DNA from: Bilabrum cf. latius
Lineage: Eukaryota
NCBI GenBank assembly: GCA_965178125.1
Contig: OZ237775.1
Span: forward strand, 310,001-374,000
Reading direction: 5' to 3'
DNA length: 64,000 nt
Within the stretch, counting starts at the first letter, position 1. Each line of letters opens with the position of its first letter. Below, piece by piece: positions 1 to 64,000 of the stretch. The notes beneath the pieces were generated by a model. It did not search any database, was not told the DNA's origin, and was given only the letters and a program-made list of their open reading frames with translations. The translations under genes and the position numbers were made by a program.

Positions 1-1
1 C

Positions 2-3000
2 TCCATCACGAACGTGCAAATCGTTGGGTCCAATGTACGACTCACCTTCACCTCACCTTCATCGTGCGGCACTATTCAGGATGTCCGAGTGGATGCGTAC
101 AGAGATGATGGGTTTGTGACTGACACAAAGCTCATCAACCAGGTGAGCTACTCGAGCGGCCTAGACGCTGCCAACAGGCAGGTGGACATTCCCGCGAGTC
201 AGCTGGACGACCAGGGCTACGACGTGTACTTCTACATCGAGCTGCGGTATGCGAGCGGATGGACAGGGTAGAGCTCGTACTCAGCTAGCATCTCTATCAA
301 CAACAACCGCAGGCTCCGGAAGAACGGTGGCCGCTATGATATTGCCAGCAAGAGCGCTCGGTCGGCACAACGCAGCGGCCTCCCAAAGCGACGGCGACTC
401 AATGCACAGCGCGCAAGACCTCCAACACCGCCGTCTCACAGCATGCGAGCGCCAAGACCTGGATTTTACCCGCCGTCGGACGGGCTCGTGTGGGTGCAGC
501 TGGACTACTAGCCCGGCTTGTTCAAACATCTCGTGCGACTGGTGCTGCTTGACCTTTCCAGCGGTCAGATCGTATCCGATTTCCGCTCCGAATCCGATGG
601 ACTGCACACCGGGGACCTACTGAAGAACGGGCAGTCGCAGTCGGTGGCATGGACGTTTCATGACGACATCTTCGCGTCCTCTGTGCATCTCATTGAGGGT
701 GGCTCCGCTCTCCTCGTTCAACAGAGGGCCAGCATTGAGCTCAGCGAGCTGTAGGGACTGCTGCGCCGATCAATCGAGCTCCGCCTTGTTCGCATCGACG
801 CCAGTACCGGCGCCGTCACGGCGGATCTAATGACGAACCGCGCGTAGCCGGGGCCCGTGGTGCCCTTGGCGAGCACCGTGGATCTAGGTGACAGGGTTCA
901 GACGTGGACCGCAACCATCGGGCTAAACACTGCGCCGATCATCACCAGTGACTTCGAAGTTGACCTGCGGCGAGCATCGAACGGTCTCCCGTTCGTGATA
1001 GTGGGCAGCGGATCTACCTCATTCAACCAGAGGATGCCCAGGGGCCAGGTGGCCCGATTAAAGTTTTACAGGCTGCTGTCAGCGAGACTGACCTAGGACG
1101 GGGAGCAGATTCTCTCAGACTTCTAGTCGGGGAGTTCGAATGTTGATGACACCACAGACGGTCTTTGGCAAATCAATGGGAGACCGGCACTGCCCGTTGC
1201 AAACGGGTTCTGCGCAGTGCCTGACGATGATCTAGAGGCGCCGTTTCCGGCCGGCAAGGCTCCCATGGACTACACTGTGACCTTCGGATTCGATCCCAAA
1301 GAGCAGGTGTACGAAATGGAGGGGTGTAGCGCACTGCCTAAGGACGCCTACGGTGGAATCACTGTGCCTGCCTCTGGGCTTATCGTGCAGCAAGCAGGCG
1401 GGAGCTTGTCGCCTGTACTGAGCCGTCGAGACTCGGACGGCTGCCAGCCAGGGCGGGTCAACTACATCGGGACTCGATACGTGTACTTCGACCCCGCGCT
1501 GGCACGGGCAACTGCCGAGTTTCGCACGCAGACGCACTCTGCCAACCCATCCTCATGGTCCCAGGACCTGTGCCAAGGCGAGCAGGTGGCAGCAGGGTAC
1601 GTCATTCCGCTGCGTGACCCAATACAGCAGACGGTAACGATGATCAAGTGGATCGAAGAGTCTGCCATCGTGCAGTCTAAGCCGCTGGATCCACCCGTGG
1701 ACGGGACGTCAAGTCGCAACGTGTACTCCGGTAGCAACCTGCAGGTGCAGACGGCCCATTTGCAGGGCTTCTTCCCGTAGACAGCCGGCCAGACCATTGT
1801 GCGGACGGACGGTGTGCACGATCCGCTATCTACCGTTGCCTTCTGGCTGGGCATCCGTGACCAGGACGACTGCAAGCTTCGACTTGTGTAGAGCGACTTC
1901 CCCGGCTTTGGCGTGCCCATCCTGTCCCGGTTCACGCCCAGGAGCAATTCGATTCAGAAGGCCGAGGATGCAGATGTGTCAATCGTGTACCCATATCGCA
2001 TGAGTGTGGAGGACTTCGGCAGGTCACTATTCCGCAATCTGACCTGCACCTGGCCGGGGATCCAAGCGTTGGCTAGCACCACAACTAGCAAGGAGATAGA
2101 CTGCAGTGGTTCCAGGCCGTGTCTAGCATACCATTACGACGATAACCGCGTTGAGGTGGTGGCAGGCGCACTGGTGGCCTTGATCGACTTCGAGGCCAAT
2201 GTTCTTGAGAGCAATCCAGGGATGTTCAATCGCGACGGCACTCTTCGCAGGAGCGACAACTGGCCCCCGGCTGGGTGGTTCCCGGGTTCTTCATCCGGCA
2301 CCGGAGGCAGCAGTGGGGAATCTGACGATGACTTTGTTGCACCTACTCCAAGTGCAACTCCATCAGCTGCCCCAACGCCCGGAGCGGCCCCATCAGCCAC
2401 CACGACGCCGTCTCCAACACCAACTCCGGGGGCGCAGCTAGCTTGCAGCAGCATCGGCCGGCCTACGGTGACGGGCCTGCAGTACAACTCAGACTCGCTG
2501 TACATTTCGTTCAATCCGTCATCAAGCGACGCAGCTGCATGTCGGTCCATCGACAACGCTCTAGTTTCGGTGTATACACGTGGAATCTTCTACGATGTCA
2601 CAATGGGCGATGATGTACAGGCTACTGTCCTCTCTGATAATCGCCTCGCGGTGTAGTGGTCCAAGCTGGATGCCAGCGACGTCTTCGTCAGATCGAATGC
2701 TTAGATTTACTTCACCATCAAGTACAGTCGTGAACTCTACGGCGGGTATGGGCCGGCATCGTTCTTCAGCTCCGATTTCACCGTCAACATCCCCTCCACA
2801 TTGCGACGATTGCACGCGCAGGCAACATCCACAAGCTTGGAATAGGATGGTGAAGTGGCGGGCTTGAGCAACAGGCATCGGGCTCTATTGCCAGATCCAG
2901 TGAATGGCTCGATCGAGAGCGGGCAACAGCTAGGGCTGGACGACGCATCCAGCCACCGACGAACCACAGTCACTGATCGAACGAATGACGATGTTTTCTT

Positions 3001-4648
3001 CGTATTTGCAGGAGATCTCACCGACAACCAGAAGGCACTTGTGCTGGAGCGCACCGTAGCCTACTTGACAGTGGCCGTAGTGCCGTGGGAAACAAGCGAG
3101 AACGAACCGGTCCTGGCCATCGAGTATGGAGACGTGTCGGTGACACTTGTTCCCTACAGCGAGCTAGAGGCCAGGATTCGTTAGGAGAGGAGCCAAGGCG
3201 AGGATGCAATCTCGTACGGATACTTCTACTTCGGCCCGCTTTCCGATGGCCTTCCTATCGATCGGGTGACGGAGATCGCACCAAGCAGGACATCCGGCTG
3301 GGTCACACCTGATAGCCGCGAAAGTGGAGCCAAGCCGTACTTCCAGAAGTGGCGGCGGCGAAGGGCACAGGCTGGATCAGATCAGGGGACTGACGCAGGT
3401 GCTGACCTGGCCGATCTCGGCAGCCAAGCGCTGCTGAGCTCAATCCGCCAGCGGGTCATCGCCATGTCTGGAGGGCAGCTGAGCGGCTGTTCCGCCGCAA
3501 CAGAGCTGCGCCTCTCAGTGGGATACTCAGACACGCCGCCATCCGACATGCAATCCGTCTCGCTGCGTGAGTCTGCCTCAACGACTGGCACCGCCCGGTG
3601 GTACATACTGTCCTGCAGGGGACGGCGCATCGCCTCTGTACGATTCGACCTCGCGACCAACCGGATCGACTCGATCACCTCGGAGGCCAGTGACGTCAGG
3701 ATCGGAGGAGCTGGTGCACTTCGCGACGTGTCTTAGATGCTCCCGGTAGAATCAACGAGTGGCAATATGCTCTACTTTGACAAGGATGGCAACAGCTTGG
3801 GTGTGTTTGAGATCGTGCCTGTGCAGGACAGCGAGGAATCCCTGCCCACGGCACTCAAAGCAGACCTGCAGGAAGCAAGCATTGAGTCGCATAAGCTCAC
3901 TCTTCTGCAGGTACTACCACGGACTGATGAGTACGTGGGAATCGGGGACGCTCTTGCTGGCAGTCAGACCGCATCTGCTGTGAGTGTGCGCCAGGGCGAG
4001 ATGGTGCTCCCGCAAGCGGTGGCCCAGGGTGTGGGGGTCCAGTTCGAGGCATCCGTGCGGGTCATCACGACAATTGAAGCTGATCCGCCGTTCCGGCAGA
4101 CGAAGGAAGGGCGTATCGTTCCTGCCGAGCTGGATCGGGCACCTTGTCACGACCCATCGACGGAGCAATGCCTGCAGTTCAATCTTGCCATGGAAAGCAC
4201 CGTAGTGCAGTACGAATACCCGAACACGATCCTGGCAGCTGTGGGTACACTCGGTGGTTTTGCATCAACGCTGCTGGGCGGTCTCGGCGTGGCAGTTGCC
4301 GCATGCAAGGCTATGGGGGCCGCTGGCAAGCGTGTGGAGGCTGACAAGGCTCTAATTGTGGGCCGGATCATCGAGAACGACGATGACGACACCATGATTC
4401 GTGTGGTGGCCCGCATCAACCGGGAGCACCGAGAGGCAGCTGAGACAGAGAAGCAGAGAAGGGCTGCACAAAGTCGGAACAAGCCGGGCTGGATGCAAAG
4501 CATACGCCGTGTGGCTTCATTTGGATCTGAAGATGCGGCATTGTCGAAGGAAAGAAGCACTGCACCGCAAGTGGACCCAAGCGTCGACACGGATCACCGC
4601 AAGAGCATGGATTTTATGAAAAAGAACCCGATCGGGGCTGGAACATGA
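2..4648 (+). CDS. 5'-partial large membrane/surface protein (>1,500 aa) with a duplicated beta-rich extracellular module, an S/T/P stalk and a C-terminal TM helix; 13 in-frame TAG
   Basis: Track ORFs starting 14, 518, 857, 1217, 1913, 2855, 3266 and 3737 share one frame. All but the last end in TAG, the gaps contain no TAA/TGA, and the first non-TAG stop is TGA 4646-4648. Hydrophobic segment NTILAAVGTLGGFASTLLGGLGVAVAAC at ~4225-4310. The frame is open at the window start. Confidence 0.8.
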
Positions 4649-4861: not shown

Positions 4862-7800
4862 TCATGTGGACTGGATCTACGGCAAGATACTCCATATAGA
4901 CGCCAGCCTGCAGGTCATTGCCGCACGTGCAAGTGCGCCTCGCGTGGTTCCGTCTTGTGCTCCCTCCTGCACGAGCAACACTGCCCCGTTTGCCTACACA
5001 GAGTCTCCTGCATTTGGCGTCACCAGCGACACACGCGCGCCCTAGCATACCTGCACGGCAACTACGCGATCCTGTCCTAATCCGCATCGAGCGGGACTCC
5101 ACACCTCCAACAGCCTGCGCTTTGGGACGTATGTGACTGGCAGTGCTTCAAACTGCATTTCACTAGCTTCTGGTCCATCCTCCGACTCTGGCCCGCTCGA
5201 TGACATGACCGGTCCGACCCATGCTACCTGCGCGTGCCTGTATCCTTTCCACATCCTGACGCAGGTCGCGTCTGACGTACGCATCTCAACTACACGGCCG
5301 AGCGAATCTGTGCTTAACACGCGCATCGCATCAGGAGACAGTGCAGCGGACCCTGGGGCACGATTCCCTCTCCGTCCATCAGGGGCGAACCGCGCATCAT
5401 GACCCACGCGGTGAGGCACCTATCTCTCGAGTCGTCGCTGCATCCCCTTCAAGCCGTCAAGGCAGGCCTCGTCGGGTCCGCCAAGCCACCCGCAGGCGAA
5501 GTCCTCAGGGTCACAACCTGGCGGAGCGTCACCCGGAATCACGCCAAGCCGCAGCATGGCATCGAGCCGAGGCCTGCCAGCAGCGTCAGTGGATCGCTGC
5601 GTGATCATAGCCGCGGCTCTCCAGTCCTGCTCCGCTCTCTGGCGCCGCGCACGCAGTTCCAAAGCACGAGCCGGGTCGAGCTGTTCCCCCCCAATGTCTC
5701 CTGCCGCAGCGGAGCCACCCTCGGAATCCTGACCCAGGGACTCGCTTCCCATCGTAGCACCGCCTTTGCCCACATCTGCACCGCCCCCGGCAGATCCGCT
5801 GTACTCCGCGCTCCAGCCTCCCGTTCCCGGCCCATCATCGTCGTCCCCCTAGCTCCCATCGCTGTCAGCGTCGAGGTCATCGCCCCCGAAAAAACTGCTA
5901 GCGATGCCACGCACCACGGATCCGGCGCCGCGCACCACGTGGCCGACCCCTGCACGCACAGCCGCAGCCGCGCTTGCAGCCGTATCCCCGACGCTGTGCG
6001 AAGCCAGGCGCCTGTCGGGGCGCGCCCGGAGGAACATGGGTTCGTGGCCCACGGCGAGTAGCACCGGCTGGGAGGTAGCTGGGTAGATGCGAGTAGAATT
6101 TGATTTAACTGATGCCTAGGCTGCATCCTAATTCTACACGGGATCCGCGCGAGATGCATCCCTTGCGGTGGCAGCGGAGTTGCCCAAGCGCTGTCCATCA
6201 GTCTCCTCGGGCAGCGGTGCTTCCAGCAGCAGCCCCGGCACTGTGGATCGCTCGGACATCATTGCCTCCCTAGTACTCCCCAGCAGTAGACCGGAGCTGC
6301 GGGGGGGCAGAGAAGGTGGTACCTGCTCGGAGGCATCGTCATCGTCCTGGGTCCCGTACCACGTGCCGGCCGGAACCGCCGATTGTGGCGGCGCGTGGCT
6401 GTGCGAAGCACCAGCGGCTGCGTGAGACCTGTCCCCGAGATCGCCTGGGATCCAGGCCCCCATCACAGCGCACACGCCCTAAGCTCCATCCAGGTGCCAG
6501 GGATCCCATGCGATGATGCGGCGCCGCGCATCGGAGCTGCGGAACATGCGACGGTAGCGTCGCACGGTTCGGAGATCTGCCTGCTCCCTGCGCGAGTGCA
6601 GCTATGCCAACGGTGCATCAAGTTTGCGAGTTTCACTGTCATCCGCTGAGGCACCAAGCGCGCCTGACGTGCCTACCTAGTCCGGAGACGGGTCTCCGTC
6701 TCGAGTGCCAGTCGTATCTACCCCACTCTGAGCATGCTAGGCAGCGGCATCTTGCTTGGCAGCTGCTGAAGGCATACCGTCCGACGCTGCTGGACCTAGA
6801 CTGGTCATCGATCCTGCACCCTGCGTCGCGCCTTCTTGCGACATTGCTGCAGAATCGATCGATCGCCAGTCCTCGTCGACATCAAACCCAGCCATGTCCT
6901 CCTCGGCATCGTCGGGGAGGCCCCCATCAGCATCAGTAACAGCGCCTGCAGGTCGCCCGAATGCTCGCCCGTGTGCGCTGCTGGTGCCCACCTCATCATT
7001 TTCTTCATCATCATCTGCTGCTGCTGCTGCTGCTGCTGCTTCGGTGCCTTCGGTACCTTCGTCTCCTGACCCATCTTTCTTGATCAGCTCAAAGCTCTCC
7101 ACCACCTCATCTACTTCACCATCATCCTCCTCTTCCTCGTCATCCAACTCATCCAGCACCCAACCAGATTCCAACTCGCCGTCGCCGACGTCAGACCCCT
7201 CCTCATAGCTATCTTCATCTTCATCATTGTCTTCGTACGGCGCACCCCTCAGCGCAGCAGAAGCAATTCCAAACACGCTGGACACGAACCCACCGAGACC
7301 ACCCTGCCTGCCCTCATGCTCGTCCTTGCGGCGTTCCCGGTGCCCCTCGCGATCACTGCGCCTGGTGCTGCCCCTTCCCCCACTAGCCGTCCGGTTGCCT
7401 TCTTCAATGGCTCTGGCACTGGCACGACTCAAGGGGCCTCCAGACCCAGCCGCCAAATCCGAGGGAGAATCTGCTCCGATCGAAAAAGCCGCGGCATAGT
7501 GCCTCACGATAGACTCGAAGCGCCTCGTAGGCACCGCAACCGCGAGCCCGCCGCTGCCGACCTAGATCCATACGCACCCTTGAGGCTCCCCACGTCTCCA
7601 GCACGGCCCCTGACCCCCACTTGCGAATACACGAGCGCTTGGAAACACTTCCTACCTGGTTCCCGCTCTGCTGTTCTCCGGTACTTCCGGAGCACGCATG
7701 AATGCGATGCCCCGAATCGCAGCGTCACCGCCCCGATCTCCTCGGGCTGACACCCCCCCTCCGACTGTCTGCGTAAGTACCCTACGGGATACTAGACGCT

Positions 7801-8299
7801 TTGAAGTGCGGCAGAGGTACACATAAAATACATGGAGTTGGCCAAGGGTATCCCCTGCGAGTACGACAGCACCTTCGCAGCTCGTGGTTGGCCACGAATC
7901 ACTAGAGTCGGGCAATGAACCGTCCGATTCGGCCATTACGCTATATCGTGCTGCAGTTGTTGCCATGAGTCGCTGCATTTCCCTGCTAAATCCAACGGAG
8001 ACGGGAAGCACGCAAATTGACGAAACTCCTGCCACCATTTCGAATGCGGCCGGAAGAATGGCGCAAGTCTGCCTGATGAGCAGAGTCATACCACGCACTC
8101 TACTAGTTTCTTTATGGTTTGAGGAGTCGGCCGAGCTGGACGAATCATCGCAAAGTGCGAAAGTTAGTGTGGCGTCGTTTCCAACGACAACAAGAGTGCC
8201 GCTCCCGATCGCCCCCTAGGCGCATTGTGGAGGCTCCTTCATGCTATCAGCTGAGCCAAAGCACAGCCAAACATCCCCACGCTATGAGATATCGACCAT
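4862..8299 (-). CDS. RAB3GAP2: Rab3 GTPase-activating protein non-catalytic subunit (RAB3GAP2 N-terminal domain), ~1,145 aa with TAG read as sense
   Basis: Motifs LSPDAMRVLSTDSLGRV..CVRMWKGYRHAQVAWV..TYVPKRRLLEVW and LLAVGHEPMF..VRGIASSFFGG resemble RAB3GAP2_N. Track ORFs 5042, 5420, 5849, 6134, 6737 and 7652 are one frame joined through TAGs. ATG at 8297-8299 (start inferred), TGA at 4862-4864. Confidence 0.8.
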
Positions 8300-8612
8300 A
8301 ATTTGTAAAAATGCCAATTCAGTTTGCTGTTCATGTACTAGCAGAAACCGGAACCGGAAGCACAAGCACAGCCGAGTGCTCCCGTCGCCCGGGGGATCAC
8401 AAATTCACACAATACAAAGGTAAACATCCTTCAGGCAGGCTCGTGCAGCCAATCGTCGCGCTGCCTGGACGTCAAGGCGCTGGACATCTGCTGGCATGTC
8501 TCTACCCAACCACACTGCAGGCTCGCTCGCCCCAAGCACCTCACTGGCAGCTTCAAACCACTCTTTTGGATAGGGAACCATACAGTCGCTTCGTGACCTA
8601 GCAATTTGATAT

Positions 8613-16450: not shown

Positions 16451-16500
<50 letters not shown>

Positions 16501-16682
16501 CTGCCACTGTTAGCAACCATGGCGAATGTGTAGGCACCAGCTTGGGCGCATTAGCGACCCCTGGCGACACGAAGCATGCTGAGTCTGGTTCCAAAGAAGC
16601 AGGCGGGGCAGGGAGGGGGGGTGCAGAGTAGGGCGAGGAGGACGAGCTTCTTGGACTGGTCGACTGGCGAGGACCCGGGTGA
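15652..16682 (+). CDS. ZNF830/CCDC16-like protein (C-terminal region only, no zinc finger seen), ~313 aa; exons 15652-15872 and 15962-16682
   Basis: MSNLPSDFFN resembles the LPxxFFD motif, VEQGVYELRVEEAK resembles EQ..YxRVExL, and the acidic C-terminus ends EEDELLGLVDWRGPG (DWR motif). The DWR motif is reached only by reading through TAG 16305, 16329 and 16629. TGA at 16680-16682. Family call is from remembered motifs. Confidence 0.5.
15873..15961 (+). other. Spliceosomal intron (89 nt, phase 2)
   Basis: GTAAGC...CCGCAG; splicing joins GG+G and links the 15652 frame to the 15963 frame. Confidence 0.7.
16269..16355 (+). repeat. 24-bp coding tandem repeat, ~3.6 copies (VMEG-[E/TAG]-GQG)
   Basis: Unit GTGATGGAGGGC[G/T]AGGGGCAGGGG starts at 16269, 16293, 16317 and (partial) 16341. 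Confidence 0.95.
16451..16500 (+). repeat. (CAG)16 microsatellite, read as poly-Ser (AGC) in the ZNF830-like frame
   Basis: Directly visible perfect trinucleotide run. Confidence 0.95.
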
Positions 16683-52800: not shown

Positions 52801-55800
52801 AAAACGCCTGGTCGATTCCAGAGCTGGCAAAGTCTCGACCTCGGAAAAGTCGTTTTGCATGCAAATAGCTAGTACATTTGCGACACCTGCGATCTACGTC
52901 CCTGCCTGCCAGCCCGCTTGGAGGTACTCCGGCAGTGGAGCTAGGACGCCTGCAACGCAAGGATGTCCGGAACCAGCTGCCCGCATATCTATCACCTGGA
53001 CACCAGCAGCATCCGGCATGGTGCCAGAGAATCGAATGATACCATCGTTGCTAGATGACGATAGCAAGCCCAAACCGGCTGATAATGCTGCGTTCATTGA
53101 CACGATGCCCACATGGAGCTCACCGCCACCGACAGCGTATTGTCTTCCGATGCCCCTTAGAATCCTTGCTTGGACTGCCTAGAGACCGGCTTGCTCTGGA
53201 GAGCGGTGGGTATCTTGAGGAACCACTGGCCTGATCAGATTCTTTGCAATTGCTTCCAGCCCGGAATGAATGTCTGCCATTGGCTTGCCCGACTGTTGCT
53301 CATTATTTAAAAACGTTGCATCGCTTGCAAGCACCGAGCTGAGCTAACCAACTAGCGGGGCAATGAACGCGTGTACCTGGCCAAATTCAACTGATTGGGT
53401 CCAAGTCCCCTCTTGAACGCTCCTCGCAACCTCACTTGAAGGCCAGGATCCGTTGGAATCGACCGCACCTGAAGCAGCAATCCCCGAAAGGGGCACAGCG
53501 AGAGAGACAGACACGAAGTCAATATACGGCGGCACAAACTGATGCAGCCGGCCTTGTTCCTCTGAAGGCACCGACGAAGTATAACGGGGCAGCATATCAC
53601 GCACGTCTACCTCGATTCCAGTCTAGTCTGGGTCAAATAGGACAAGGGAGCCTTGTCCAAAGCTTACCTGCGGGACCATGCTTCCGGTTAGGAGACGTCT
53701 CGTGGTGTGAGGTCCGATTGAATCGAGTACATGAGTAGACCTCACTGCGTGCGCAGATACAACCTGCAGTGCAGAGCCACCTGGCCTCCGCATGCAAGCC
53801 ACTACAGCCACTGGCACCGCACCGCTGGTTGTTGAGTAGAACGCAGGATACTGCAGCAGAATCACTATTGCCGCATCGCACGCCGACCCATCAAGATGGT
53901 CACGAGGGGCGAATGCCACCCGCGATCCAAACGCTGGATTGCTTCCTGGGATCGGACCTATCGCGCTCCGCATCAGCGTGGGCCTAGCAGGTGTGATGAC
54001 CAGCGTGTCTTGGACGTGGGCATACCTTGCAAAATCGGGCGTGTTGCTTGGTGCAACCAGTGTGATGAGGAACACAGCACCTTCCATATCGTCCTCGTGC
54101 ATCTCGATGGTCTGGGCCTGTGGATCTGCAACGGCAACTACGCGGGTATCATCGATAGAAACACCAGTATTCACCAGCTCAATGTCCGTGTCCACGTTAG
54201 CGGCGCTGACACTGGCCCCAAATGCGCTCCGACCAGCATCCAGGCGAATTGTTGCACCTCGAATGCTGCTTGAAAGTGCGCTTAGCATTAACAGTCTTGG
54301 CATGCCGATGTACTCCAGACTAGGCCCCGAGTGAATCTGCTACTTGTCACACATGCCAACCATCCCGCTCACTTGATTTGCGACATCCTTTGCAACCGGG
54401 CGGACAAGCATCGGGCTGTGCAATAGGTGACATGTATGGCTGGAACTGTCGTACTCGAACGTCCTGCAACGATCAGAATCATCACAGAGCTAACTGCACT
54501 GCGAGACACTGGTCGCCATGTGGTTTCCGAGTGTGTCGAAGCTAGCACGCCCCTGCGTGCTGCCGCCAGGTACCACACTGTGGCAGTTGCCAAGCACCGA
54601 ATCTGCGTTCGTGGGTCGCGCCCCGACCAGCAGAACCCCGCCCGTTTCCTCACCTCTTGGGGTCTCGAAGGCTACGTCAGGCGCACCAATCGCGAGCAAC
54701 ACTTCATCATCGGCGGGTCGCTGCAACGGTTCAACAAGAGGAAACACCTGCACTTCGGCAATCTGCAGAATTGTGCTGTTTTCTAGCTTGAAAACGACGA
54801 CACGAGTGCCCCCTCGTCCAGTGCAGTCAAAATCCGTGTATGTTCTCCCTTGGCCAGACCGTTCGGTCTCCTCCAATGGCCGCTCGCATTGAGCCAGGGA
54901 CTGCAAATGCTCTATCACGCCGGTACTCTTCGGTGGCGTTGCGCTACTTACAGCTACCCTGAATTCCTTATTTCGCACGTCATTGTTCTACCAATGGTAT
55001 ACGCGTACAATGCCGATGTCCTAGTGCTGCTGCAGGGTCACTGCCCACCACGGGTAGTCATCCCTAGGGCTTTCAGCTGAGTTGTAGTGGTTTCCCGGCC
55101 ACGTGATGCCATCCACTGCTTTTTCGGGAACGTGATTGGGGCCAAGTTCTGATAGACTATCTGCAGGACGTCCCTCGGCCAAGTTTGCGGCTGTGTACGA
55201 AGCTAAGTCAGCGGCAGACTCGGTTGCAGTGATGCCGTTGGCCGGCCCAACCACTGCGATCGTGGCTCCAAAAGACGAGTCATCATCTGAGGCAACTGCG
55301 GCTATCCCTGGGCGCAGCAGCGATCGGATGCCATCAGAGACCTACAGCATCTTTGGATAAATGAAAGAAACACCTCTCTACGCGAGATTGATGCCAGCAG
55401 GTGTACCGCCCAGTCCCTCTGGAATGGACATGACTGGGACACCCTCAGCCCGAGGATATACCGAGGCTCTTGTGAAGCCAAAGTTGGTCTTGCCATCCGA
55501 GGTCTTGGCTCTGTACACAACCGACGAATCCACAGGTCCCACGCCGTACTCTGCAACAGATGGTACGAAACCCGCGTGAATCAGCTCGAGTTCTGAGACA
55601 CTCCGACTCCCGGCGGATCTCCTGACTACAGCACCTCCGTTTGAATGGGTAGTCACGATCTATTGTCCATGACCAACCGAAGCAAGTTCCTCGACGAAGT
55701 ATGCCTTCGAATCCTGCCTATGCTTGCTTCCATCATTCTTCAATGCAAGCAATACAGCGTCATGGTTTCGAGTATGGAACTACATCCCGCGCACTCCAGG

Positions 55801-58800
55801 GAGTCTCAGCGCAGCCGCTGCATCCCACGAGTCTTCATCAGAGGTCATTGCACTCGAGAAGCAAAGCGCTGGGCGAGTAGTAGCACTGGAGCATGACTCA
55901 AGCGTCCATTCAGTACCATCCGTGTGCACGCACTCGCCCTCACTGGATGTCTGCGTCTTGTCCCATTCGGACTCATCTGCAAAGTAAGATGCCGCCGCAT
56001 GCACAGGCAGAGGTACAGAGTGCAAGAAACTGCGAGGTCCAGATTCCTAGACCCGATGCATCCATGCATTGCTGGTATTGCCTCGTTGGATTGGCAGCCA
56101 GCAGCCCTCCAAACACAGGTGCTTGGCCACCTCGCTTCGAGAGGCAGACACCAGTCCACCGCTCGGGAACGCGAAGCTAGCACCAGCCACCGCAGCGTTG
56201 CACGCTTGCTGAGCGCTGGAGACGACAGTGGGTGCTGATGTACTCAAGCAGTACTTCATGTCAACGTCAATTACGCTCCCGGTCGGGCAGCTCGTCCTCA
56301 TGCCTGCATAGCTCGCAGGTCGCATGCGCGGCACTGAGCCCGCGGGCGGTTCATGCGAGTCTCCCTAGTAACAGCCTATGCAGTGAGCCAGTGCAAGAGT
56401 AGCGGGGCCATTCGGATTTCTGTAAAGCACTGTTACATCGTGTTGACCATACAACACCGGTGGGTCAACGCATGCAACCCACAGCAATGAACTGGCCTCG
56501 GTCCTTCTCCTCGAGTCAAGTTCGTTATGTTTTCCGATCGCGAGCAGACTACACCCGGCATCGTTGGGAATGTTCCCGAATTGGATTGACAGCATAGGTG
56601 TTGAGGTTGACGTTACCTCCCCTCCTGCATCGAATAGCCATGTCCTCTTGCCTTGCAACACAGACGCTCCCTCTGCAGATAGCTGCACTGCACCTGTGTG
56701 CTCTCCTAGCAATCCGCGGGCAAATGCCCTAGAGACGTGCATGGAGAACATAACGACGCCATCATGGGTCCCGTTTCCACCACATCCCGATGATAGTCCA
56801 GACCGAGTGCACGTGAAAACGCTCCTCGCTCTCTCCCAGATCCTCGCCGTTGATGACTGGGTCTGTAACGTAAAGACGGTGTTTAAGGGAGCGGCGGGTT
56901 GGCTACTACCTTGAACGATGTCATTGAATGCAGCAGCCAGGCGTATAGCCTACTCTTTCAATATCTGTGGAAGTTCCGCGATGAGCTACACCAGGTTGCT
57001 GCGACTACTTTGCACAAGCACGGAGATCAGCTGAAGGGCATCACTACGAATATCCATGCTAGGGTATGCCTGCAGCACAGCAGGCATATTCGCGACTGCC
57101 GATTCTGGCGTTGACTGCCAGAACAGATCGGACCTGTTGGGCGCGAACCCTCCAGCTGCAGGTTGGGCATTGGGCAATCTCGCGAGCAGCAACCCTGGAG
57201 AAGCAGAAGACGTGTCACTTGCTACCAGGGGCACTGCTACCGCTGACTACACGCCGTCAGCCACGAGGCCAGTGCTCACGATCCGCCATGGCAAAGGGTT
57301 CATGTGCTCACCTCCATCGGTGCATCCTAGTGGCTCCGCTCGGCACGCCTACTCAGCCCAGAGGACCGTGCTTCCGTTTTTCTAGCCGGGACGGTATCCT
57401 CTGGAGATCTGGCCGGGACCTACAGGTGCAAAATCGACCCAGATCAAATGCGATGCCTGTGTGGGTGCTACGGCAGAATTTTCGATGCCTCCGTATAGGC
57501 GTGAGAAGACTCGCACGACACCAATAGAAGTGCTTTGCCCGAGTCCAAGCCACTCTCCGACCCGCCCGTCAGGTGGAGCCAGCGGCCAAATGGTGGTACT
57601 TCCAGACCCCTTCGGTGACAGACTCTGCCACTAAGACACAGTCAAGGCAGCGAGGTCTCCTGCATTCGGGCTTGAGGTAAGGTGAAGCAGCTGAATCTCC
57701 CCTGCCCCGTTGTGGGCCCCCGGGGCGCCCACCAGAAGCATGCAGCTCTTTGCTGGAGCCGCTGTGATTGATTGGCTTCCTGTTCCGAGGATGATTGCAC
57801 CATCAGTGGAGCCCGCGGCGGTATCACACCCTAGCCACACCACCGCATGTCCCCAGTCGTCGCCCGCTGTGGCAGCATGATGAGGAATCCCATTGGACCC
57901 CGGCATCAGAGCAATGGCACTGGAGTATCGCGGCAACCAAAACTGCCCCCTTGCTTCCGATTCTAGTCCAACCACTGCGTCTCGTGCGGATGCAGACTCA
58001 TCTAGCAGGCCGAGGATCCAGATGCAACCAGGGATCTCCTCAACGGAAGATCCGACAATGGAGCGAGGCCGCGTCCCAATCGCGACCATTTGGGCCGCAT
58101 TGGTACCCTGCTGGCTAGAACTTGCTTGGATAGACAGCGAAGAACCTATCACTCGGAGAGATGCAGCCGCTTGCATTGCTACGGTCTTGCGAGTGTCGTT
58201 CGGAGTCGCCTCAACCAGAGTACCCGCGTTGACTCGTCCTACAGGGAACGTCTCAATTCGGGCCAGTGAATCCGCCCTGCTCACGCGTGGCACTGATACT
58301 AGACCGGTCAGCTCGACGACTCCCGCCTCATCTCCTAGGGCCTACGGCTCGACCTCGCACACAACCCCCCTTGACAAGTCCCCGCTCGTGGTGCTCCTTA
58401 GACCGGAAGTGCTTCTGATCTGTCCTTGGGCATCAAGATCAACCTTGAGGTAGAGCTTGTCGAGGCTGGGAATGTTTCCATTGTACCACAAGGTTGTATC
58501 AGCTGGATAGTTTGACCCGTCCGAGAACTTGCCGCCGCTGCCATCTAGCCAGCACTCGTTGTCCTCGTCAATCACAGTGATGAATTCACTGTCGTCATTG
58601 TACTGAGACACCTGCGTGCAAACAGACATAGCCGCATCGACCTGGGCTCTAGTCCTGGGTGCAGCCACTCGAGCGCTGAATTTGCCATCACTTGAGGAGA
58701 ATATCGAGGCCTCCTGCTCTGTGATGAATCCAACGGCCCGCATGAAGTTAGCCTTGCACATGATATCGCCCTAAGACAGGGTGTGCTACACTGCAACATT

Positions 58801-61800
58801 ATTTCCATTGAATTCAATGACTCCGACGTGGTAGCACATGGAGCTGTCCGAGCTCCGGGTCCATCCTGTGGGGCATGCGGCTGCAGATGTGACAGTCTGC
58901 AGCCGCTGCGAAGCGATCAGCCTTGCAGTAGACAGTGGTGCTTTTTCGTCACTCTGGCGCGACTGATCGATAGATCCCAAGCTGTGCATGAGCATGTGGC
59001 TGGCAGTCTGCCTACTGACATTTATCGTGCTTGCCAGGGCTGAAGACTCCTCGAACACCGCTTCATGCATCACTCGTGAGGTACTGGATCCCCTGGCTCT
59101 CAACTCCGATACACACTACGCCACTGGAGCCTCGCATACGTACTACGATGGGTTGCCAGCACTGCTGCATGCACCCAGGTTGTACCCTGACTGATACGAT
59201 GGCACTTGGGAGCACACCGCGGCCCCATCGATCTCTCCCGTTGCATTCGTGTGGATCGTTGCCTCGCCACCACCATCGCGGAACAGCACCCATCCGTCAT
59301 CCAGTCGCTTGGATACGAGAAACCTGGACAGGAAGCGCAGTTCGGACAGCGAGCTGACAGTTGCGATTCGACTGAGTGGATTCTGCTGCCTGCACGCGGA
59401 CTCAGCCTCATCTAGGCTTGTCATTACCCCACTGTGCACCTAGTAGGACGAGAAAACACGCTGTCCACTTGCAGTCAGAAACCGCGTGTCACTGAGAGTT
59501 GCCGATGGTGCGGCAATGGCACTTGCAGCAGAACGAATCAACCCAACCTCGCTGACGGGTGCAACAGCCAAACCAGACCCCACCGCCATTGATACGGTGG
59601 ACACATTCGCATGCAAGTACAGGCTATCGATACCACCCGCACTCTCAGCTGGTACATGCGTGCTTCCTGCGACAGTAGGACATGCAAGTCCGTTACCGCC
59701 GGATATCAGTGCAATAGGCTGCACAAAGTAAGCCCCACCTGAGTCTTGGACTGTCGCTAGTAGGAGACTGCCGTTATGTGCCGGAGGGCCGAGCTTCGTC
59801 AGATTGCCTGAAGTGGAAACCAGAACGCCAATCCCACCAGACCCCTAATCGTCGAACATAGGCCCCACTGTAGCCATCTACTCGCCTATTGCGCTGTCTG
59901 TAGGCACCAAGCCCTGCAGGAATTCCGCAGTCGCGCCACTCTGGTGTGCGGAGTCCCATGCGAGCCGGTCCGCCAACGAAGAGGAGACGGCAGTGTTTTC
60001 GGCCGCAGGAATAGGCATGTACTCGACGCATTGGCGGCATATCATCTCAACGGAATCCTCGGTGAAGTGTCCCGACGCATGCAATCGAACGGTTCCGTCA
60101 GCCAGTGCAGTCCCAGCAGTAGTCGTAGCCAGCTTGTCAACAGGAATATCAAGCCTATCAGGCATCCCCACGCATTCAACTGCTACAAGATCTGGCAGCA
60201 AAAATGACATCGGTACAACAGACACATTACGGCAACTTACACTGCCGACTCGAACGGACAAGTCGAATTCACCACCTTCGCTATGGCCACTTGCTGCAAT
60301 GTGCCTGATCGCTGCCGCGACCCACGGCCGTTCAGCACTCCCGACCCAAACTTCCAAAAACACGCTGTGCAGTTCAGCGTCAGGGTGCACCTTCTGCAAG
60401 GCTGCGGGACCGCAACAAGCTGCAAGCGACCCTTGATCTAGCCCCGCAAATGCACCTCCGGCCTCCTAGTGCTGCCTCGCTGCACCGGCCCGGATGACCG
60501 CATCCCCAGCACGCTGCCTCACGACTGGATGCAACGGAGCGATGGTCGTGACTGCATGGTCCAAAACTGGCGTGCCACCACCGATGACAGGTGTACGAAA
60601 CTGCATCCACGGTACTTGATTCAGTAGGCTCGTCTGGACCACAGGAGTGAACATTTGCGCACCAGAGTCGGATACGTTGGAGGTGATCAGTCCCGCCCAA
60701 ACCCCGACATTGGGATTTGTGTTGCCAGCCAGGGATGGATGCATTGCCGATGCACCGGTCATGGTAGGCATGTGCACATTCAGGCTGGATGCGCCCTGAG
60801 CTACACTGCCTGTCAGATACGCCTCACCGAGGTGCATTGCCTAGACACCGAACCTGGAGCTTTCCAACGCCTGCATGAAATCATTTCCACGTGTCGGAAT
60901 ACCAAATGGAAATGCAAGCAACGAATTCAAATGCTGGAAGCTGATCTGGACCGCAGCATATCCTGACTAATCAGCAAGCACGACTGACCTAGCTCGAGCG
61001 CATCCAACTGTTCCTGCCTGGTGCGCAATCATGCGGGACAAAGCCCGGTTTATTTTGCTTGAGCCATTTGAGTGAAGTAGCATCTTCTGAGCTTGTACCA
61101 GCCTATCGGCAAGCACAATATCCGTGCCTGTAGACGCGTGCGCATTTGCATTGCACTCCTCGTGCACAGCACTTCTTCCAGGTGGCACGTAGGGTCCTGA
61201 CGACACCCTAGCTCCATGCCACCAGGAACCTTGCCCCCTAAGCGTGCGATTAAAGACGGTTTGTCGAATTGAAACGCTAGCAACGGCCTCGAATTTCAAC
61301 GAATTGCTGCTGTCGTCGTCATTCAGAGCTGCCTCTCTCACGACGGTGACAACCGCTGCCGGCGGGTCTCTTTGCACCCTGACAGCAGGTCGCTGGCACA
61401 AGGCCGGGCGTGGGGCACTGCAACTCGCCACCGCGTATTGCAGCTTAAATGTAGGCGGCGGCCCTTGTGACTGTGACGAGGCTAAAATGCACTGTGCCGC
61501 AGTACCGGTCAGCAGACTGGACTGGTCACGACACGCCTTGCGATACTGAACACTGTTCGCTGTTTCTGACCGCACTGTAACCCCGGATTGAACAAAAGCT
61601 GATGTCGATCCCTGGAGAGCGGCACCAGCGGCATTTTCGTCATTGTCACCCTCAACAGCGCAGGCTTGAACCGGTACCACGGAGCTGTTTACTCCGGCTC
61701 CCAGCGCTCTGCAAGCTGCTTGCGCATTTGTTTGCATGACACTGTCCTCTGTGGTACGGTAGCACACCGTCGTTTCATAATCATCCCCACCAAACCATCC

Positions 61801-63999
61801 GCTGGGACAAACGTGCACCGAATCCTATTCTTCACTGCCTACATTACTATCATCTTGTTTGAACCCGACTGCCAAGGCGAACCGGGTCTCGGCCGCTGGC
61901 ATGAAGCTGGCTGTGCTGTAGCCCTGCTTCCAGGCTTCTTCCACACTAGCGAAACCATCTTCCACATCTAGGGGAATATCGAGATTAGAAACCGTTGTTG
62001 ACCCACCAATGAATGCTAAGGATTGACCGAATCCTTCGAATGCCCCGGCCCCAGTCGCACGAGCTGCCAGCGCTGCTTCTCTTCCCAGGCCCCTGCTTGC
62101 AACCCACCCCGGCACACCACGAAGACCTGCGTGATTCACTGCTGGTGCAATGGCATTGACATGCAGTACGCGCGCCTAGATATTGCCAGACTCTCCAAAG
62201 GTGGGTAGCACATCTGCTAGCACGACCCGGCCCTACCCCTCGAATGCACCGGGGGCACCAATGGCGAGAATGATCCGGCCATCTGCTCCTGCTGGCCGTT
62301 CACCAGACAGTGAAGCCCTCGGAAGCACAGACAAGCTTGCACCAAACATGTAACTCTCGCTGGCGCACCCCAGCACTCCAGACATGATCTAGAATCCACT
62401 GCAATCAGTTGCTTCTAGCCGAGCCACAGACACAACTGGCTACTGCGAGTCTAGCGAGCTTCCAACGCCGTCGAACTTGGACCGAGGAGAACTATCGACT
62501 GAAAACGAGAGCCTCAAAGCCATAATCTCGACAACTCCTTTCTGCGAATCTTCCTTTGGAAGCCCAGTCGCTATCAAGTGCACCCCGCTTCTTGCCAGTG
62601 GAGCAACTGCGCCGCCCGCGGCAGCGCTATAAATCGGATATGTCCTACCAAGGGAAGCCACCGAGGCGCCAAGCGACACATCGGTGGTCTTGATACTTAA
62701 AGCGTTGTCAATTTCCGATGAGACAATGGAAGATGCCACCACCTGCACCTGGGGTGCCTTTAAGCCCTAGCCTGCACCCTCTTGGGTGTTAGTGATGAAA
62801 ACAATCGCAATGGCACCCTAGCCGCCGGTTGCATCGACAGCTCCCTGCTTGAACAATGGTACACCCATGGCGACTGCTGTGACTGGCGCTAGCACGACAT
62901 GCTTTTTGGTCGTGCCGCAGCTCTCGGACGGCATGGCAGGGAAGCCAGCGAGTGTCACCTCTGGCAAGGATCTAAACCTTGCGACATCCAATGCTCCTTC
63001 TTGGTTAAAGTACATGCTAGAGTTTTGATCGTCCGCCAGACAAGCCCCAAGGTACAGGCCACCGCCAAGGATATCGAGGGATGTCACAGATGCCCCATCG
63101 GTAGATTCCCATTCAGGGTTTGTGAGCTCTGTACGGTGGGATGCCGCAGCGTTGATGGCTGGTGCCAGGGACACGCCAGCAACAGGCTGTGCGCTGGAAA
63201 TCGTGCCACTAGAGCTGCGTAGGCCGTGCACGAACGGTGACGATAGCAGCAATGGCTTTCCATTTGACTCGGCAGCTGACATGATCGTTGATGCTCCTGA
63301 TTGCGTACTTGATGCGGGTCGCAGTCCAGAAGAGTTGGCATTGCTGCCAAGCGCGCCCTGCAGGCCCTAATCAGTGAGTGACGGGTGACTGCCGACACCG
63401 TATGACACACACCCTGAGCATACTGCCGTGACATGCCCAACCACCGCTGTCCTTCCGAAGAGAGAGGACCGCACCATTGACTGGCTGGAAGTATAACCGG
63501 AGGAGCCAGTCGGCTAGCCTGATGTAGATGCACCCACGTCACACACTGGACTATCGGCGGGAATGGCAAGTCCACGCAGCAAGCTAGCAGCCTATTGCGC
63601 AGTCATGTCCGCCCACCCGGCGCTGCATCCATCCAGTACAATCGAGTACGTCACCTCAACATCGGTTGAGCTGCTGCTGCCAACTGGCACGGACGGAGCA
63701 CCTGGCGAGCCCAGGCACGTCACCCATGCCAGTGACTCAGGCCCTCCTCGAGGCATGCCCGATTGGAATCGCCCCATCGCGCCCACCTAGCACGGCGTCC
63801 CTCCGATCCTAATGCTCTCAAGCACAGCCCTCGCCCTCCTGGTGCCGATCGCCCCATCCGTTTGCACAGCACCACGACCGATAGAATCCGTCTCGTTCTA
63901 AACCAGCACGGGCGGCCAAATTCGCTGCATCGACTGCGACGCAAGCTCAGCACCTTGAACTTGACGTGACCCTTGGCCGTGGATGGCAGCCAGCAGCGG
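28855..63999 (-). CDS. 5'-partial giant intronless cell-surface multi-pass receptor-like protein (>=11,714 aa): FG-GAP-like repeats, C-type lectin domains, fucolectin/F5-8C-like domain, IPT/TIG repeats, mucin-like stalk, Cys-rich repeats, multi-TM domain and cytoplasmic tail
   Basis: 52 minus-strand track ORFs from 29455 to 63786 share one frame and all end in TAG. The gaps I read contain further TAGs but no TAA/TGA until TGA 28855-28857. Motifs: CPSGW..CYR..AQAACRALG; NLAEGRPA..KAVDG..PWWAVTL; VGAPG/IGAP; PAITEVSPSEAGPRDKITIRGVGFG; CMPCPEGAVC and CIEGHTGVLCQRCTPGYY; KIIFTHVQ..IDWP; YWEAVNLTRK. Confidence 0.85.
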
Positions 64000-64000
64000 A

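What the first reader, a model, noticed from the sequence alone, without database searches (positions are those of the whole stretch)
1..64000. Non-standard nuclear genetic code: UAG is a sense codon across the window
Seen: in eight of ten genes, on both strands, one reading frame is interrupted only by TAG. There are about 100 TAGs by hand count in the giant ORF and 13 in the first gene. Conserved domains continue past the TAGs: the DUF455 C-terminal PPFN..AR..AGF motif after 25904, the kinase AGC tail after 10653, RAB3GAP2 motifs on both sides of 5420/5849, and the oxidoreductase C-terminus after 20187. Established: UAG-only reassignment in nuclear genomes is rare; cases I recall are the fornicate Iotanema spirale (Gln), an uncultured rhizarian (Leu) and some phyllopharyngean ciliates (Leu or Gln). 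Inference: this DNA is GC-rich, unlike typical ciliates, and encodes a mitoribosomal protein, unlike fornicates. It may therefore be an independent, undescribed reassignment; gene style suggests a heterotrophic stramenopile such as a bicosoecid, which is tentative.
Basis: partly seen in the sequence, partly recalled or inferred. Interest (0 to 1): 0.97.

Follow-up and report, generated by a model that had tools for sequence, protein, structure and literature searches.

The report
UAG read as glutamine, nuclear genes
This stretch of a compact, GC-rich eukaryotic chromosome uses the stop codon UAG as an ordinary amino-acid codon, most likely glutamine, while UAA and UGA still end genes, which is a rare kind of genetic-code change in an organism I could not place.

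Summary
Seven long frames on both strands (19,429 codons) hold 169 TAG, 0 TAA and 0 TGA. One of them is an 11,714-codon frame with 106 TAG. Under the standard code the longest frame is 895 codons.

The DNA is eukaryotic and nuclear. It has GT-AG introns, a poly(A) end, eS7 and Rab3GAP2.

TAG stays unchanged in contigs of three studies, including spliced RNA-derived contigs. The DUF455 domain resumes after a TAG. All 10 genes end in TGA (8) or TAA (2).

New here is the amino acid. At 15 TAG sites covered by fragments of related organisms (48-87% identical), the relatives have Gln at 7-8. Gln fits best by 9 log-likelihood units over Glu. Ser and Leu are rejected.

The code is therefore UAG=Gln with UAA and UGA as stops, the type known from Iotanema, Protocruzia and some phyllopharyngean ciliates. 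Stop-codon usage excludes Iotanema.

The lineage stays unresolved. Weak leads point to opisthokonts, green algae or stramenopiles. No tRNA(CUA) or eRF1 could be examined, because no genome is held.

The parts
2..4648 (+). Gene g1. The frame is open from the window's first bases and holds 13 in-frame TAG. Stop is TGA. No Pfam family. The C-terminal part looks like a membrane anchor.
4862..8365 (-). Gene g2, Rab3GAP2-like. It matches RAB3GAP2_N profile positions 316-417 at residues 1018-1124. It holds 16 in-frame TAG. Stop is TGA. The first in-frame ATG is at 8299.
8613..14647 (-). Main exon of gene g3, an AGC-type protein kinase (Pkinase, E 4.8e-49). It holds 14 in-frame TAG, including 10653-10655 just before the C-terminal F-x-x-F-E-Y-like tail. 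Stop is TGA. An upstream exon begins at about 14850, beyond the intron.
14648..14849 (-). Intron of g3, 202 nt, with GT..AG ends on the minus strand. It is removed in one X5 contig.
   Evidence: table 5
15654..16682 (+). Small gene s1 with one 89-nt GT-AG intron at about 15873-15961. It holds 4 in-frame TAG (15682, 16305, 16329, 16629). It contains the repeat GVMEG(E or TAG)GQ and a poly-Ser tract. Stop is TGA.
16996..17720 (-). Small gene s2 with one 127-nt intron (17320-17446). Stop is TGA. No family was found.
17722..18864 (+). Ribosomal protein eS7 gene. Three exons: ATG at 17722 to 17730, then 17902-17976, then 18087-18590. It has no TAG. Stop is TAA at 18588-18590. The poly(A) site is near 18864. 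RNA depth is very high.
18750..20663 (+). Gene g4, a Gfo/Idh/MocA-type oxidoreductase. The frame is open from 18606 and the first ATG is at 18750. It holds 3 in-frame TAG, including 20187-20189. Stop is TGA.
20806..25446 (+). Gene g5, a DnaJ-domain protein with 16 in-frame TAG, including a TAG-TAG pair at residues 1599-1600 of the frame. Stop is TAA. Its C-terminal half is alignable to fragments of relatives P0015 and P0016.
25577..27328 (-). Gene g6, a DUF455 (ferritin-like) protein. It holds one in-frame TAG at 25904-25906, which lies between two parts of the domain. Stop is TGA.
28855..63999 (-). Gene g7, a giant frame of at least 11,714 codons. It runs off the window end; the first ATG is at 63930. 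It holds 106 in-frame TAG, including TAGTAGTAG at 48547-48555. Stop is TGA. It has a PAN domain, a weak F5/F8-C-like match, IPT/TIG-like and FG-GAP-like repeats by eye, a Cys-rich module and a C-terminal multi-pass domain. Homologues of that domain carry FG-GAP, TIG, DUF7630 and TRP (PF06011).

Best explanation
The window is nuclear DNA of a eukaryote whose genetic code has lost UAG as a terminator. UAG is translated as an amino acid, most likely glutamine. UAA and UGA remain the only stop codons.

Shown: UAG is read through in at least eight genes. It is present in the RNA. Relatives mostly have Gln where this genome has UAG.

Inferred from what is established for other UAG-only codes (PMC5304391, passages): decoding needs a tRNA with anticodon CUA, which pairs with UAG but not UAA, charged by glutaminyl-tRNA synthetase. 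It also needs an eRF1 that no longer recognises UAG but still recognises UAA and UGA. In Iotanema this goes with a change in the GTS motif.

New UAG codons would arise mainly by C-to-T change of CAG at weakly constrained sites. That fits their near-random frequency (0.87% of codons) and their scarcity in conserved domains and in the highly expressed eS7 gene.
For: (1) Frames. There are 169 TAG, 0 TAA and 0 TGA in 19,429 codons of seven frames on both strands. ln P of no TAA or TGA by chance is about -499. TAA-sense or TGA-sense readings give no gain.

(2) Domain continuity. DUF455 profile positions 90-207 lie before the TAG at 25904 and positions 211-246 lie after it, in the same frame.

(3) The DNA is real and transcribed. 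Contigs of runs from three studies lie on 4801-24800 with 1 base difference and 1 single-base gap in low-depth contigs. Four GT-AG joints and a poly(A) end mark RNA-derived contigs in X5 and X7. Of the TAGs in the laid stretch, 36 lie in listed X5 pieces, 9 in X7 pieces and 3 in contigs that are themselves spliced, all unchanged.

(4) Terminators. 10 of 10 genes end in TGA (8) or TAA (2), none in TAG. The eS7 frame has no TGA between its TAA and the poly(A) site, so TAA must terminate there.

(5) Amino acid. At the 15 TAG sites covered by BLASTP alignments to fragments of relatives at 45% identity or more (P0015, P0016, P0017, P0018, P0023), the opposite residues are Q 7, E 2, and K, I, N, A, P, S one each. 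The default BLASTP alignment makes one more site Q. With the substitution table taken from the same alignments, lnL is Q -37.4, E -46.7, H -47.9, S -64.6, L -70.2. P(at least 7 Q of 15 | 3.8% Q) is 5e-7. Canonical Gln is conserved at 40% in the same alignments, similar to the 47-53% at TAG sites. At TAG site 10638 of the giant protein, Q is the commonest residue among distant homologues (8 of 36 non-gap).

(6) TAA is not sense. There are 0 in-frame TAA, where about 80 would be expected if TAA followed TAG in the CAA:CAG ratio.
Against: The amino-acid call rests on only 15 sites in five short fragments from two genes. Three or four of those sites lie in poorly aligned, low-complexity stretches. 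7-8 of 15 sites are not Gln, and Glu is the runner-up. One in-window repeat alternates GAG with TAG (16270-16350).

No tRNA gene lies in the window (ARAGORN, Rfam) and no genome is held. The tRNA(CUA) and eRF1 parts of the mechanism are therefore untested.

There is no peptide evidence.

Ten terminators are too few to exclude occasional use of UAG as a stop: P(0 of 10) is 0.11 if 20% of stops were UAG.

The tool labels X5 as 'RNA? (probably DNA)'. Only the spliced contigs are certainly RNA-derived, and contigs drop rare variants.
Confidence: 0.8

Rival explanations
1. UAG is a sense codon but encodes another amino acid, most plausibly glutamate (as in peritrich ciliates, Blastocrithidia and ciliate PL0344), or lysine.
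For: 2 of 15 relatives' residues are E and 1 is K. The repeat GVMEG-E-GQ / GVMEG-TAG-GQ alternates GAG with TAG. P0023 has E opposite TAG 10638.
Against: The lnL for E is 9.3 units below Q, and K is 19 units below. Q is seen at 7-8 of 15 sites, matching the conservation of canonical Q. E, K and Q are all single first-base neighbours of TAG, so a few such residues are expected even if UAG is Gln.
Confidence: 0.08
2. UAG has a context-dependent dual meaning: sense inside genes and stop near transcript ends, as in Condylostoma, karyorelicts, or UAA in Blastocrithidia.
For: Only 10 gene ends were seen. 0 of 10 UAG stops is not rare if UAG stops are uncommon (P 0.11 at 20%). The ORF of relative P0015 ends exactly at this genome's TAG-TAG pair near the g5 C-terminus.
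Against: No gene in the window ends at TAG. TAG codons occur up to 24 and 35 codons before the true stop of the giant gene (residues 11680 and 11691 of 11,714) and are matched there by E and Q in relative P0017. Nearness to the end therefore does not make them stops.
Confidence: 0.08
3. The TAGs are removed or changed in the RNA, either by U-to-C editing to CAG (which would also give Gln) or by splicing, and the code itself is standard.
For: Editing UAG to CAG would explain Gln in relatives. Logan contigs cannot show minority variants.
Against: 36 TAGs lie unchanged in X5 pieces and 9 in X7 pieces. 3 TAGs lie in contigs that carry a splice joint and so derive from RNA. One X5 contig is colinear with the DNA over 8318-12598 with 0 differences. 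No joint removes a TAG (table 5).
Confidence: 0.02
4. The in-frame TAGs come from assembly or sequencing error or from pseudogenes, or the DNA is prokaryotic or phage DNA with code 15.
For: TAG=Gln recoding is known in crAss-like and other phages (PMC9523058, search listing only).
Against: The same sequence appears in runs of three studies. Only TAG interrupts the frames, 169 times, and never TAA or TGA. Spliceosomal-type introns, a poly(A) tail, eS7, Rab3GAP2 and an AGC kinase mark a eukaryotic nucleus.
Confidence: 0.01

Closest known systems
Iotanema spirale (Fornicata) nuclear code: UAG=Gln, UAA and UGA stops (Panek et al. 2017, PMC5304391; passages read)
   Same: It has the same three assignments. 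UAG is never a terminator. The inferred need for tRNA-Gln(CUA) and an eRF1 blind to UAG also applies.
   Different: Iotanema ends 104 of 119 genes with UAA. Here 2 of 10 genes end in TAA and 8 in TGA (P about 2e-6). Iotanema is a gut-dwelling anaerobe. Here the genome is 55-63% GC and compact, and relatives occur in JGI and ENA metagenome assemblies. The eRF1 GTS-motif change could not be checked.
Ciliates with UAG=Gln only: Protocruzia tuzeti and two phyllopharyngean lineages (McGowan et al. 2024, PMC11687900; passages read)
   Same: They have the same code variant. Several independent origins show that this change recurs.
   Different: Nothing here looks ciliate. eS7 scores 72 bits against Tetrahymena but 134-142 against fungi and animals. 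The record-length column gives 212,023 for the X1 run, which fits ordinary long chromosomes. GC is 58%. None of this is a formal exclusion.
Scotinosphaera sp. (Ulvophyceae): UAG=Ser, with TAA and TGA as stops (Li et al. 2021, PMC8271138; passages read; supplementary alignments not seen)
   Same: It is a UAG-only reassignment in a non-ciliate, with TAA and TGA both used as stops. The only named homologues of the giant protein's C-terminal domain are from ulvophytes (Bryopsis, Ostreobium).
   Different: Ser is opposite TAG at 1 of 15 sites, in a poly-Ser tract. The lnL for Ser is 27 units below Gln. The one mapped poly(A) site lacks UGUAA, which I recall (no call) as the signal of derived chlorophytes. 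TGTAA occurs in 2 of 10 3' flanks, against about 1.2 expected.
UAA+UAG=Gln codes (NCBI table 6 type): Dasycladales, Trentepohliales, Cladophorales, Blastophysa, Amoeboaphelidium protococcarum, hexamitid diplomonads, oxymonads, many ciliates (PMC5304391, PMC6299283, 10.1101/668475; passages read)
   Same: The change is stop-to-Gln. eS7 is most like fungal and animal eS7, which would suit an aphelid. An ulvophyte lead also exists.
   Different: TAA is a terminator here (eS7, g5) and is never in frame: 0 seen, against about 80 expected.
Rhizarian exLh: UAG=Leu (PMC5304391)
   Same: It is a UAG-only reassignment with UAA and UGA as stops.
   Different: Leu is opposite TAG at 0 of 15 sites. Its lnL is 33 units below Gln.

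Membership tests
UAG-only stop-to-Gln nuclear code (Iotanema type; old NCBI table 15) | In-frame UAG inside genes whose conserved parts continue downstream | tested here: met
   There are 169 TAG in seven frames. DUF455 resumes after the TAG.
UAG-only stop-to-Gln nuclear code (Iotanema type; old NCBI table 15) | UAA and UGA are never in frame and serve as terminators | tested here: met
   0 TAA and 0 TGA in 19,429 codons. Stops are TGA x8 and TAA x2. The eS7 TAA is followed by poly(A) with no in-frame TGA.
UAG-only stop-to-Gln nuclear code (Iotanema type; old NCBI table 15) | UAG is not used as a terminator | tested here: inconclusive
   0 of 10 gene ends are TAG. The sample is too small (P 0.11 under 20% usage).
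UAG-only stop-to-Gln nuclear code (Iotanema type; old NCBI table 15) | UAG aligns with Gln in homologues | tested here: met
   7-8 of 15 sites are Q. lnL is best for Q by 9.3 units. P is 5e-7. The sample is small.
UAG-only stop-to-Gln nuclear code (Iotanema type; old NCBI table 15) | tRNA-Gln with anticodon CUA | not testable with these tools
   No genome is held. There is no tRNA in the window.
UAG-only stop-to-Gln nuclear code (Iotanema type; old NCBI table 15) | eRF1 altered in stop-codon recognition (for example the GTS motif) | not testable with these tools
   eRF1 is not in the window and no genome is held.
UAR=Gln code (table 6 type; ulvophyte TCBD clade, Amoeboaphelidium, hexamitids, ciliates) | UAA is also a sense codon and UGA is the only stop | tested here: not met
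   0 in-frame TAA, against about 80 expected. TAA ends eS7 and g5.
Scotinosphaera code (UAG=Ser) | UAG at positions of conserved Ser | tested here: not met
   S at 1 of 15 sites. lnL is -64.6, against -37.4 for Q.
UAG=Leu code (rhizarian exLh, some phyllopharyngeans) | UAG at positions of conserved Leu | tested here: not met
   L at 0 of 15 sites. lnL is -70.2.
Ambiguous stop/sense codes (Condylostoma, karyorelicts, Blastocrithidia UAA) | The same codon also terminates at gene ends | tested here: inconclusive
   No TAG terminator among 10 genes. TAGs 24 and 35 codons from the giant gene's stop are matched by E and Q in P0017.

The most novel reading that the evidence does not exclude
This is an independent origin of the UAG=Gln-only code that is not yet in print. 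It lies in a GC-rich, compact-genome eukaryote clade outside ciliates and fornicates.

Environmental relatives appear to share it. Fragments at 78-87% and about 50% identity are cut into short ORFs under the standard code, and one ORF ends exactly at this genome's TAG-TAG.

If the clade sits next to a UAR=Gln lineage (aphelids or ulvophytes), it would be a living example of the 'UAG first, UAA later' intermediate on the way to the common UAR=Gln code.
Probability: 0.45. Interest if true: 0.85.

Novelty: new member of a known kind. Interest (0 to 1): 0.72.

Why it matters
Nuclear codes in which UAG and UAA have different meanings were unknown until 2017 and are still counted on two hands (PMC5304391, PMC11687900).

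Each new, independent case tests two things. One is whether eRF1 and tRNA changes recur in the same way. The other is whether UAG-only codes are stable end points or steps toward UAR=Gln.

This organism appears to be in culture: near-identical DNA and RNA-derived contigs occur in runs of three studies. Contigs are long and the genome is compact. The tRNA(CUA), eRF1, proteomics and ribosome profiling would therefore all be within reach.

There is also a practical point. Any annotation of this genome under the standard code cuts most long genes into pieces. The protein database holds such pieces of this window (P0012, P0013), and relatives' genes appear as short fragments.

Tried and rejected
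- **Whole genome:** none is held, so there was no tRNA(CUA), eRF1, 18S or codon census.
- **tRNA and RNA families:** ARAGORN found 0 genes and Rfam 0 matches in the window.
- **Earlier findings of this scan:** nothing for this genome or for look-alikes. The word search gave one unrelated UGA case in another genome, which I did not use.
- **Sequencing runs:** no RNA holder is listed as such. Parts of the laid stretch without X7 cover, and the bins where X6 has no depth, are not interpreted.
- **Relatives' DNA:** two metagenome-contig scans (a giant-gene segment, and a DUF455 alignment), one genome-contig scan and one viral-contig scan found no relative. Codon-level TAG/CAG comparison was therefore impossible.
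- **Protein search with giant residues 3551-5550:** only two self hits and one 87-residue relative (P0014), which covers no TAG.
- **Pfam:** no family for g1, s2, the giant C-terminal domain itself, or g2 residues 64-250. No family for giant residues 5001-10000.
- **PDB sequence search:** the alignments of the 2 best of 26 g4 matches that were printed do not reach its two distal TAGs. s2 gave nothing significant.
- **Lineage:**
  - The ESM Atlas gave only family labels: eS7, and DUF455 with 'commonest Streptophyta' at score 0.88.
  - Cluster look-ups named 5 of 30 proteins by organism: Bryopsis sp. KO-2023, Ostreobium quekettii (three proteins) and Stephanoeca diplocostata. A further cluster member, P0172, is named Symbiodinium sp. 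KB8. The closest relatives are unnamed.
  - eS7 against solved ribosomes ranks fungi and animals first, but stramenopiles, green algae, amoebozoans and rhizarians are not known to me to be among the hits.
  - The TGTAA poly(A) signal is not enriched.
- **Considered and rejected:** Scotinosphaera-type UAG=Ser, UAG=Leu, UAR=Gln, pyrrolysine (169 sites at random-like frequency, Gln in relatives), RNA editing, pseudogenes, and phage code 15.
- **Literature:** ten full-text searches found no description of a GC-rich non-ciliate, non-fornicate eukaryote with UAG=Gln only. The library lacks most subscription journals. Supplements, including the Li et al. alignments, were not available.

Full report
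**1. The observation**

Under the standard code the longest stop-to-stop frame in the 64-kb window is 895 codons. Reading TAG as sense opens these frames:

| Frame | Strand | Codons |
|---|---|---|
| 28858-63999 | - | 11,714 |
| 8616-14711 | - | 2,032 |
| 20494-25443 | + | 1,650 |
| 2-4645 | + | 1,548 |
| 4865-8404 | - | 1,180 |
| 18606-20660 | + | 685 |
| 25580-27439 | - | 620 |

Reading TAA or TGA as sense instead changes nothing. The seven frames hold 169 TAG, 0 TAA and 0 TGA in 19,429 codons. The two other frames of the same strands carry TGA at 2.18%, TAA at 0.35% and TAG at 0.95%. The chance of meeting no TAA or TGA is therefore about e^-499.

A small spliced gene (15654-16682) adds four in-frame TAGs.

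**2. What kind of DNA this is**

Pfam finds the following:
- RAB3GAP2_N in g2
- a protein kinase domain in g3
- GFO_IDH_MocA in g4
- DnaJ in g5
- DUF455 in g6
- Ribosomal_S7e in the exon at 18087-18587 (E 4e-56)

Contigs of runs X5 and X7 laid on 4801-24800 show four joints with GT..AG ends (14647/14850, 15871/15961, 17319/17447, 17973/18084). Two of these are seen in both runs. There is a poly(A) loose end at 18864 behind the eS7 gene, and depth ranges from about 2 to 2,173 across bins.

This is nuclear DNA of a eukaryote. It is 55-63% GC. Genes are tightly packed, with 131-248 bases between neighbouring coding regions. Introns are few, short and near the 5' ends of genes.

**3. Are the TAGs real and present in RNA?**

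Runs of three studies hold the stretch. Over the 20 kb laid, the only differences are one A>C at 5205 (X7) and a one-base gap at 11896 in a contig of depth 2.9 (X6).

Of the TAGs in the laid stretch, 36 lie in the listed X5 pieces and 9 in X7 pieces. Three (14511, 14241, 15682) lie in contigs that themselves carry a splice joint and so derive from RNA. None is changed. No joint removes a TAG.

The caveats are that the tool labels X5 'RNA? (probably DNA)', that contigs hide minority variants, and that only some pieces are listed.

**4. Translation must cross TAG**

In g6 the best DUF455 stretch before the TAG at 25904-25906 matches profile positions 90-207. The 108 residues after it match positions 211-246 of 247 (E 2.7e-7).

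The relative's ORF P0007 (78% identical) also stops short of this C-terminal piece. In g3 the tail 'VGFEYV', which resembles the AGC hydrophobic motif (a recalled motif), follows the TAG at 10653.

**5. Which codons stop**

Ten gene ends were read: TGA eight times and TAA twice (eS7 and g5), never TAG.

The eS7 frame has no TGA between its TAA (18588) and the poly(A) site (18864). It runs straight into the open frame of g4, so TAA must terminate there. The S7e profile is also complete five residues before that TAA.

If TAA were used like TAG in the CAA:CAG ratio, about 80 in-frame TAA would be expected. None is seen. So this is a UAG-only change.

**6. Which amino acid**

The window's conserved domains hold almost no TAG: 1 in 624 residues of best Pfam stretches, against 5.4 expected, P 0.03. 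I therefore looked for close relatives.

The protein databases hold short fragments of related organisms:
- P0007 and P0016 lie on one 7,708-base contig. The DUF455/g5 neighbourhood is thus conserved. They are 78% and 53% identical.
- P0015 is 87% identical.
- P0017 is 78-82% identical.
- P0018 and P0023 are about 50% identical.

BLASTP of all fetched proteins against the seven frames, keeping hits of 45% identity or more, covers 15 TAG sites. The residues opposite them are Q 7, E 2, and K, I, N, A, P, S one each. The default alignment turns the A into an eighth Q ('AAX-PVS' against 'AAQPVS').

With a substitution table taken from the same alignments, the log-likelihoods are:

| Residue | lnL |
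|---|---|
| Q | -37.4 |
| E | -46.7 |
| H | -47.9 |
| K | -56.8 |
| S | -64.6 |
| L | -70.2 |

Canonical Gln is conserved at 40% in these alignments, so 47-53% Q at TAG sites is what UAG=Gln predicts. P(at least 7 Q of 15) at the 3.8% background is 5e-7. Among distant homologues of the giant protein's C-terminal domain, Q is the commonest residue opposite TAG 10638 (8 of 36 non-gap).

Against this, the sample is small and comes from two genes. Three or four sites sit in poorly aligned stretches. One in-window repeat alternates GAG with TAG.

I put UAG as sense at about 0.97 and Gln, given sense, at about 0.85.

**7. Mechanism**

By analogy with the published UAG-only codes (PMC5304391, passages), a tRNA with anticodon CUA is the only way to read UAG while ignoring UAA. 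eRF1 must also have lost UAG recognition. In Iotanema its GTS motif is changed, and relatives with the standard code keep GTS (PMC9161772, passages).

Neither could be examined. No genome is held and the window has no tRNA. This part is inference.

**8. Comparison with known cases**

- The Scotinosphaera code is the nearest in pattern, but Ser is rejected here (1 of 15 sites, 27 log units worse).
- Iotanema has the same code but ends 104 of 119 genes in UAA. Here 2 of 10 genes end in TAA (P 2e-6).
- UAR=Gln lineages (several ulvophyte orders and Amoeboaphelidium) fail on TAA.
- A ciliate is unlikely. eS7 scores 72 bits against Tetrahymena and 134-142 against fungi and animals, GC is 58%, and the run's record-length column gives 212,023.

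**9. Who is it?**

This is unresolved. There are three weak and conflicting leads.
- **Opisthokonts.** Among solved ribosomes, every eS7 scoring 127-142 bits is one that I recall (no call gives organisms) as fungal or animal. Plants score 105-118 and Toxoplasma 116. Many eukaryote groups have no solved ribosome that I know of.
- **Green algae.** The named homologues of the giant protein's C-terminal TRP-like domain are Bryopsis sp. KO-2023 and Ostreobium quekettii (three proteins). A further cluster member, P0172, is labelled Symbiodinium sp. KB8. Identities are 30-39%. The nearest DUF455 Atlas cluster is mostly Streptophyta.
- **Stramenopiles.** The best named DUF455 hit is Pinguiococcus.

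The one mapped poly(A) site lacks UGUAA. The closer relatives (47-87% identical) are unnamed, from Logan, ENA and JGI assemblies.

An aphelid whose code was reported as UAR=Gln from few genes (Karpov 2013, not seen, cited by others) and a Scotinosphaera-like alga whose UAG was read as Ser both remain possible hosts. In either case the published code would need correcting.

**10. Novelty and score**

The code variant is known. The lineage probably is not one of the described ones, but I could not show that.

Ten full-text searches found no matching description. The library lacks most subscription journals, and supplements were closed.

I file it as a new member of a known kind, with interest 0.72.

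**11. Also seen**

The giant gene belongs to a family whose homologues combine FG-GAP, IPT/TIG, DUF7630 and a TRP (PF06011) channel-like domain. TAG is scarce in conserved domains and absent from the highly expressed eS7 gene. Relatives' genes are also cut into short ORFs under the standard code, and P0015 ends exactly at this genome's TAG-TAG. This hints that the whole clade shares the code.

Noticed in passing
28855-63999 (-): A single intron-free frame of at least 11,714 codons encodes a giant membrane protein and runs off the window end. Its C-terminal multi-pass domain has 150 database relatives at E<=0.001. Four homologues were scanned against Pfam. P0100 combines FG-GAP, 4 TIG, DUF7630 and TRP (PF06011). 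P0043 has TRP plus Ephrin_rec_like. P0025 has TRP plus DUF7630. P0030 has DUF7630 plus TIG. The window's copy itself has only a PAN domain and a weak F5/F8-C-like match by Pfam in its first 10,000 residues.
   Followed up: partly
all coding frames: TAG is scarce where constraint or expression is high. Only 1 TAG lies in 624 residues of best Pfam stretches, against 5.4 expected (P 0.03). There is none in the eS7 gene. Overall TAG is as frequent in frame (0.87%) as out of frame (0.95%).
   Followed up: partly
48547-48555 (-); 25276-25281 (+): There are runs of the reassigned codon: TAGTAGTAG in the giant gene, and TAG-TAG near the end of g5. The ORF of relative P0015 (87% identical) ends exactly before the g5 pair. 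The relative probably has an in-frame stop codon there too.
   Followed up: partly
16270-16350 and 16452-16500 (+): Inside the small gene s1 an eight-residue tandem repeat reads GVMEG-E-GQ twice and GVMEG-TAG-GQ twice, so GAG alternates with TAG. It is followed by an (AGC)n poly-Ser tract at which assemblies of the runs break (notes skipped repeats at 16438-16512).
   Followed up: no
18591-18864 (+): The 3' UTR of the eS7 gene, up to the poly(A) site near 18864, overlaps the start of the next gene on the same strand. The g4 frame is open from 18606, with ATGs at 18750 and 18801. Convergent gene pairs have only 131-214 bases between their stop codons (g5/g6, g1/g2), so the genome is very compact.
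   Followed up: no
P0007 and P0016 (relative's contig of 7,708 bases): The DUF455 gene and the DnaJ gene are neighbours in a relative too (78% and 53% identity). This could be another species, or a second diverged genome copy of the same organism.
   Followed up: no
P0172 / P0107 cluster; P0063, P0090, P0111: A homologue of the giant protein's C-terminal domain is filed under Symbiodinium sp. KB8 but clusters at 90% with proteins from long ENA metagenome contigs. Three more are filed under Ostreobium quekettii. Some of these records may come from organisms that live alongside the named algae.
   Followed up: no
8613-14647 (-), kinase domain: The AGC-type kinase has DMG in place of DFG, and about 55 extra residues between that motif and the GTPGFWAPE segment.
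   Followed up: no
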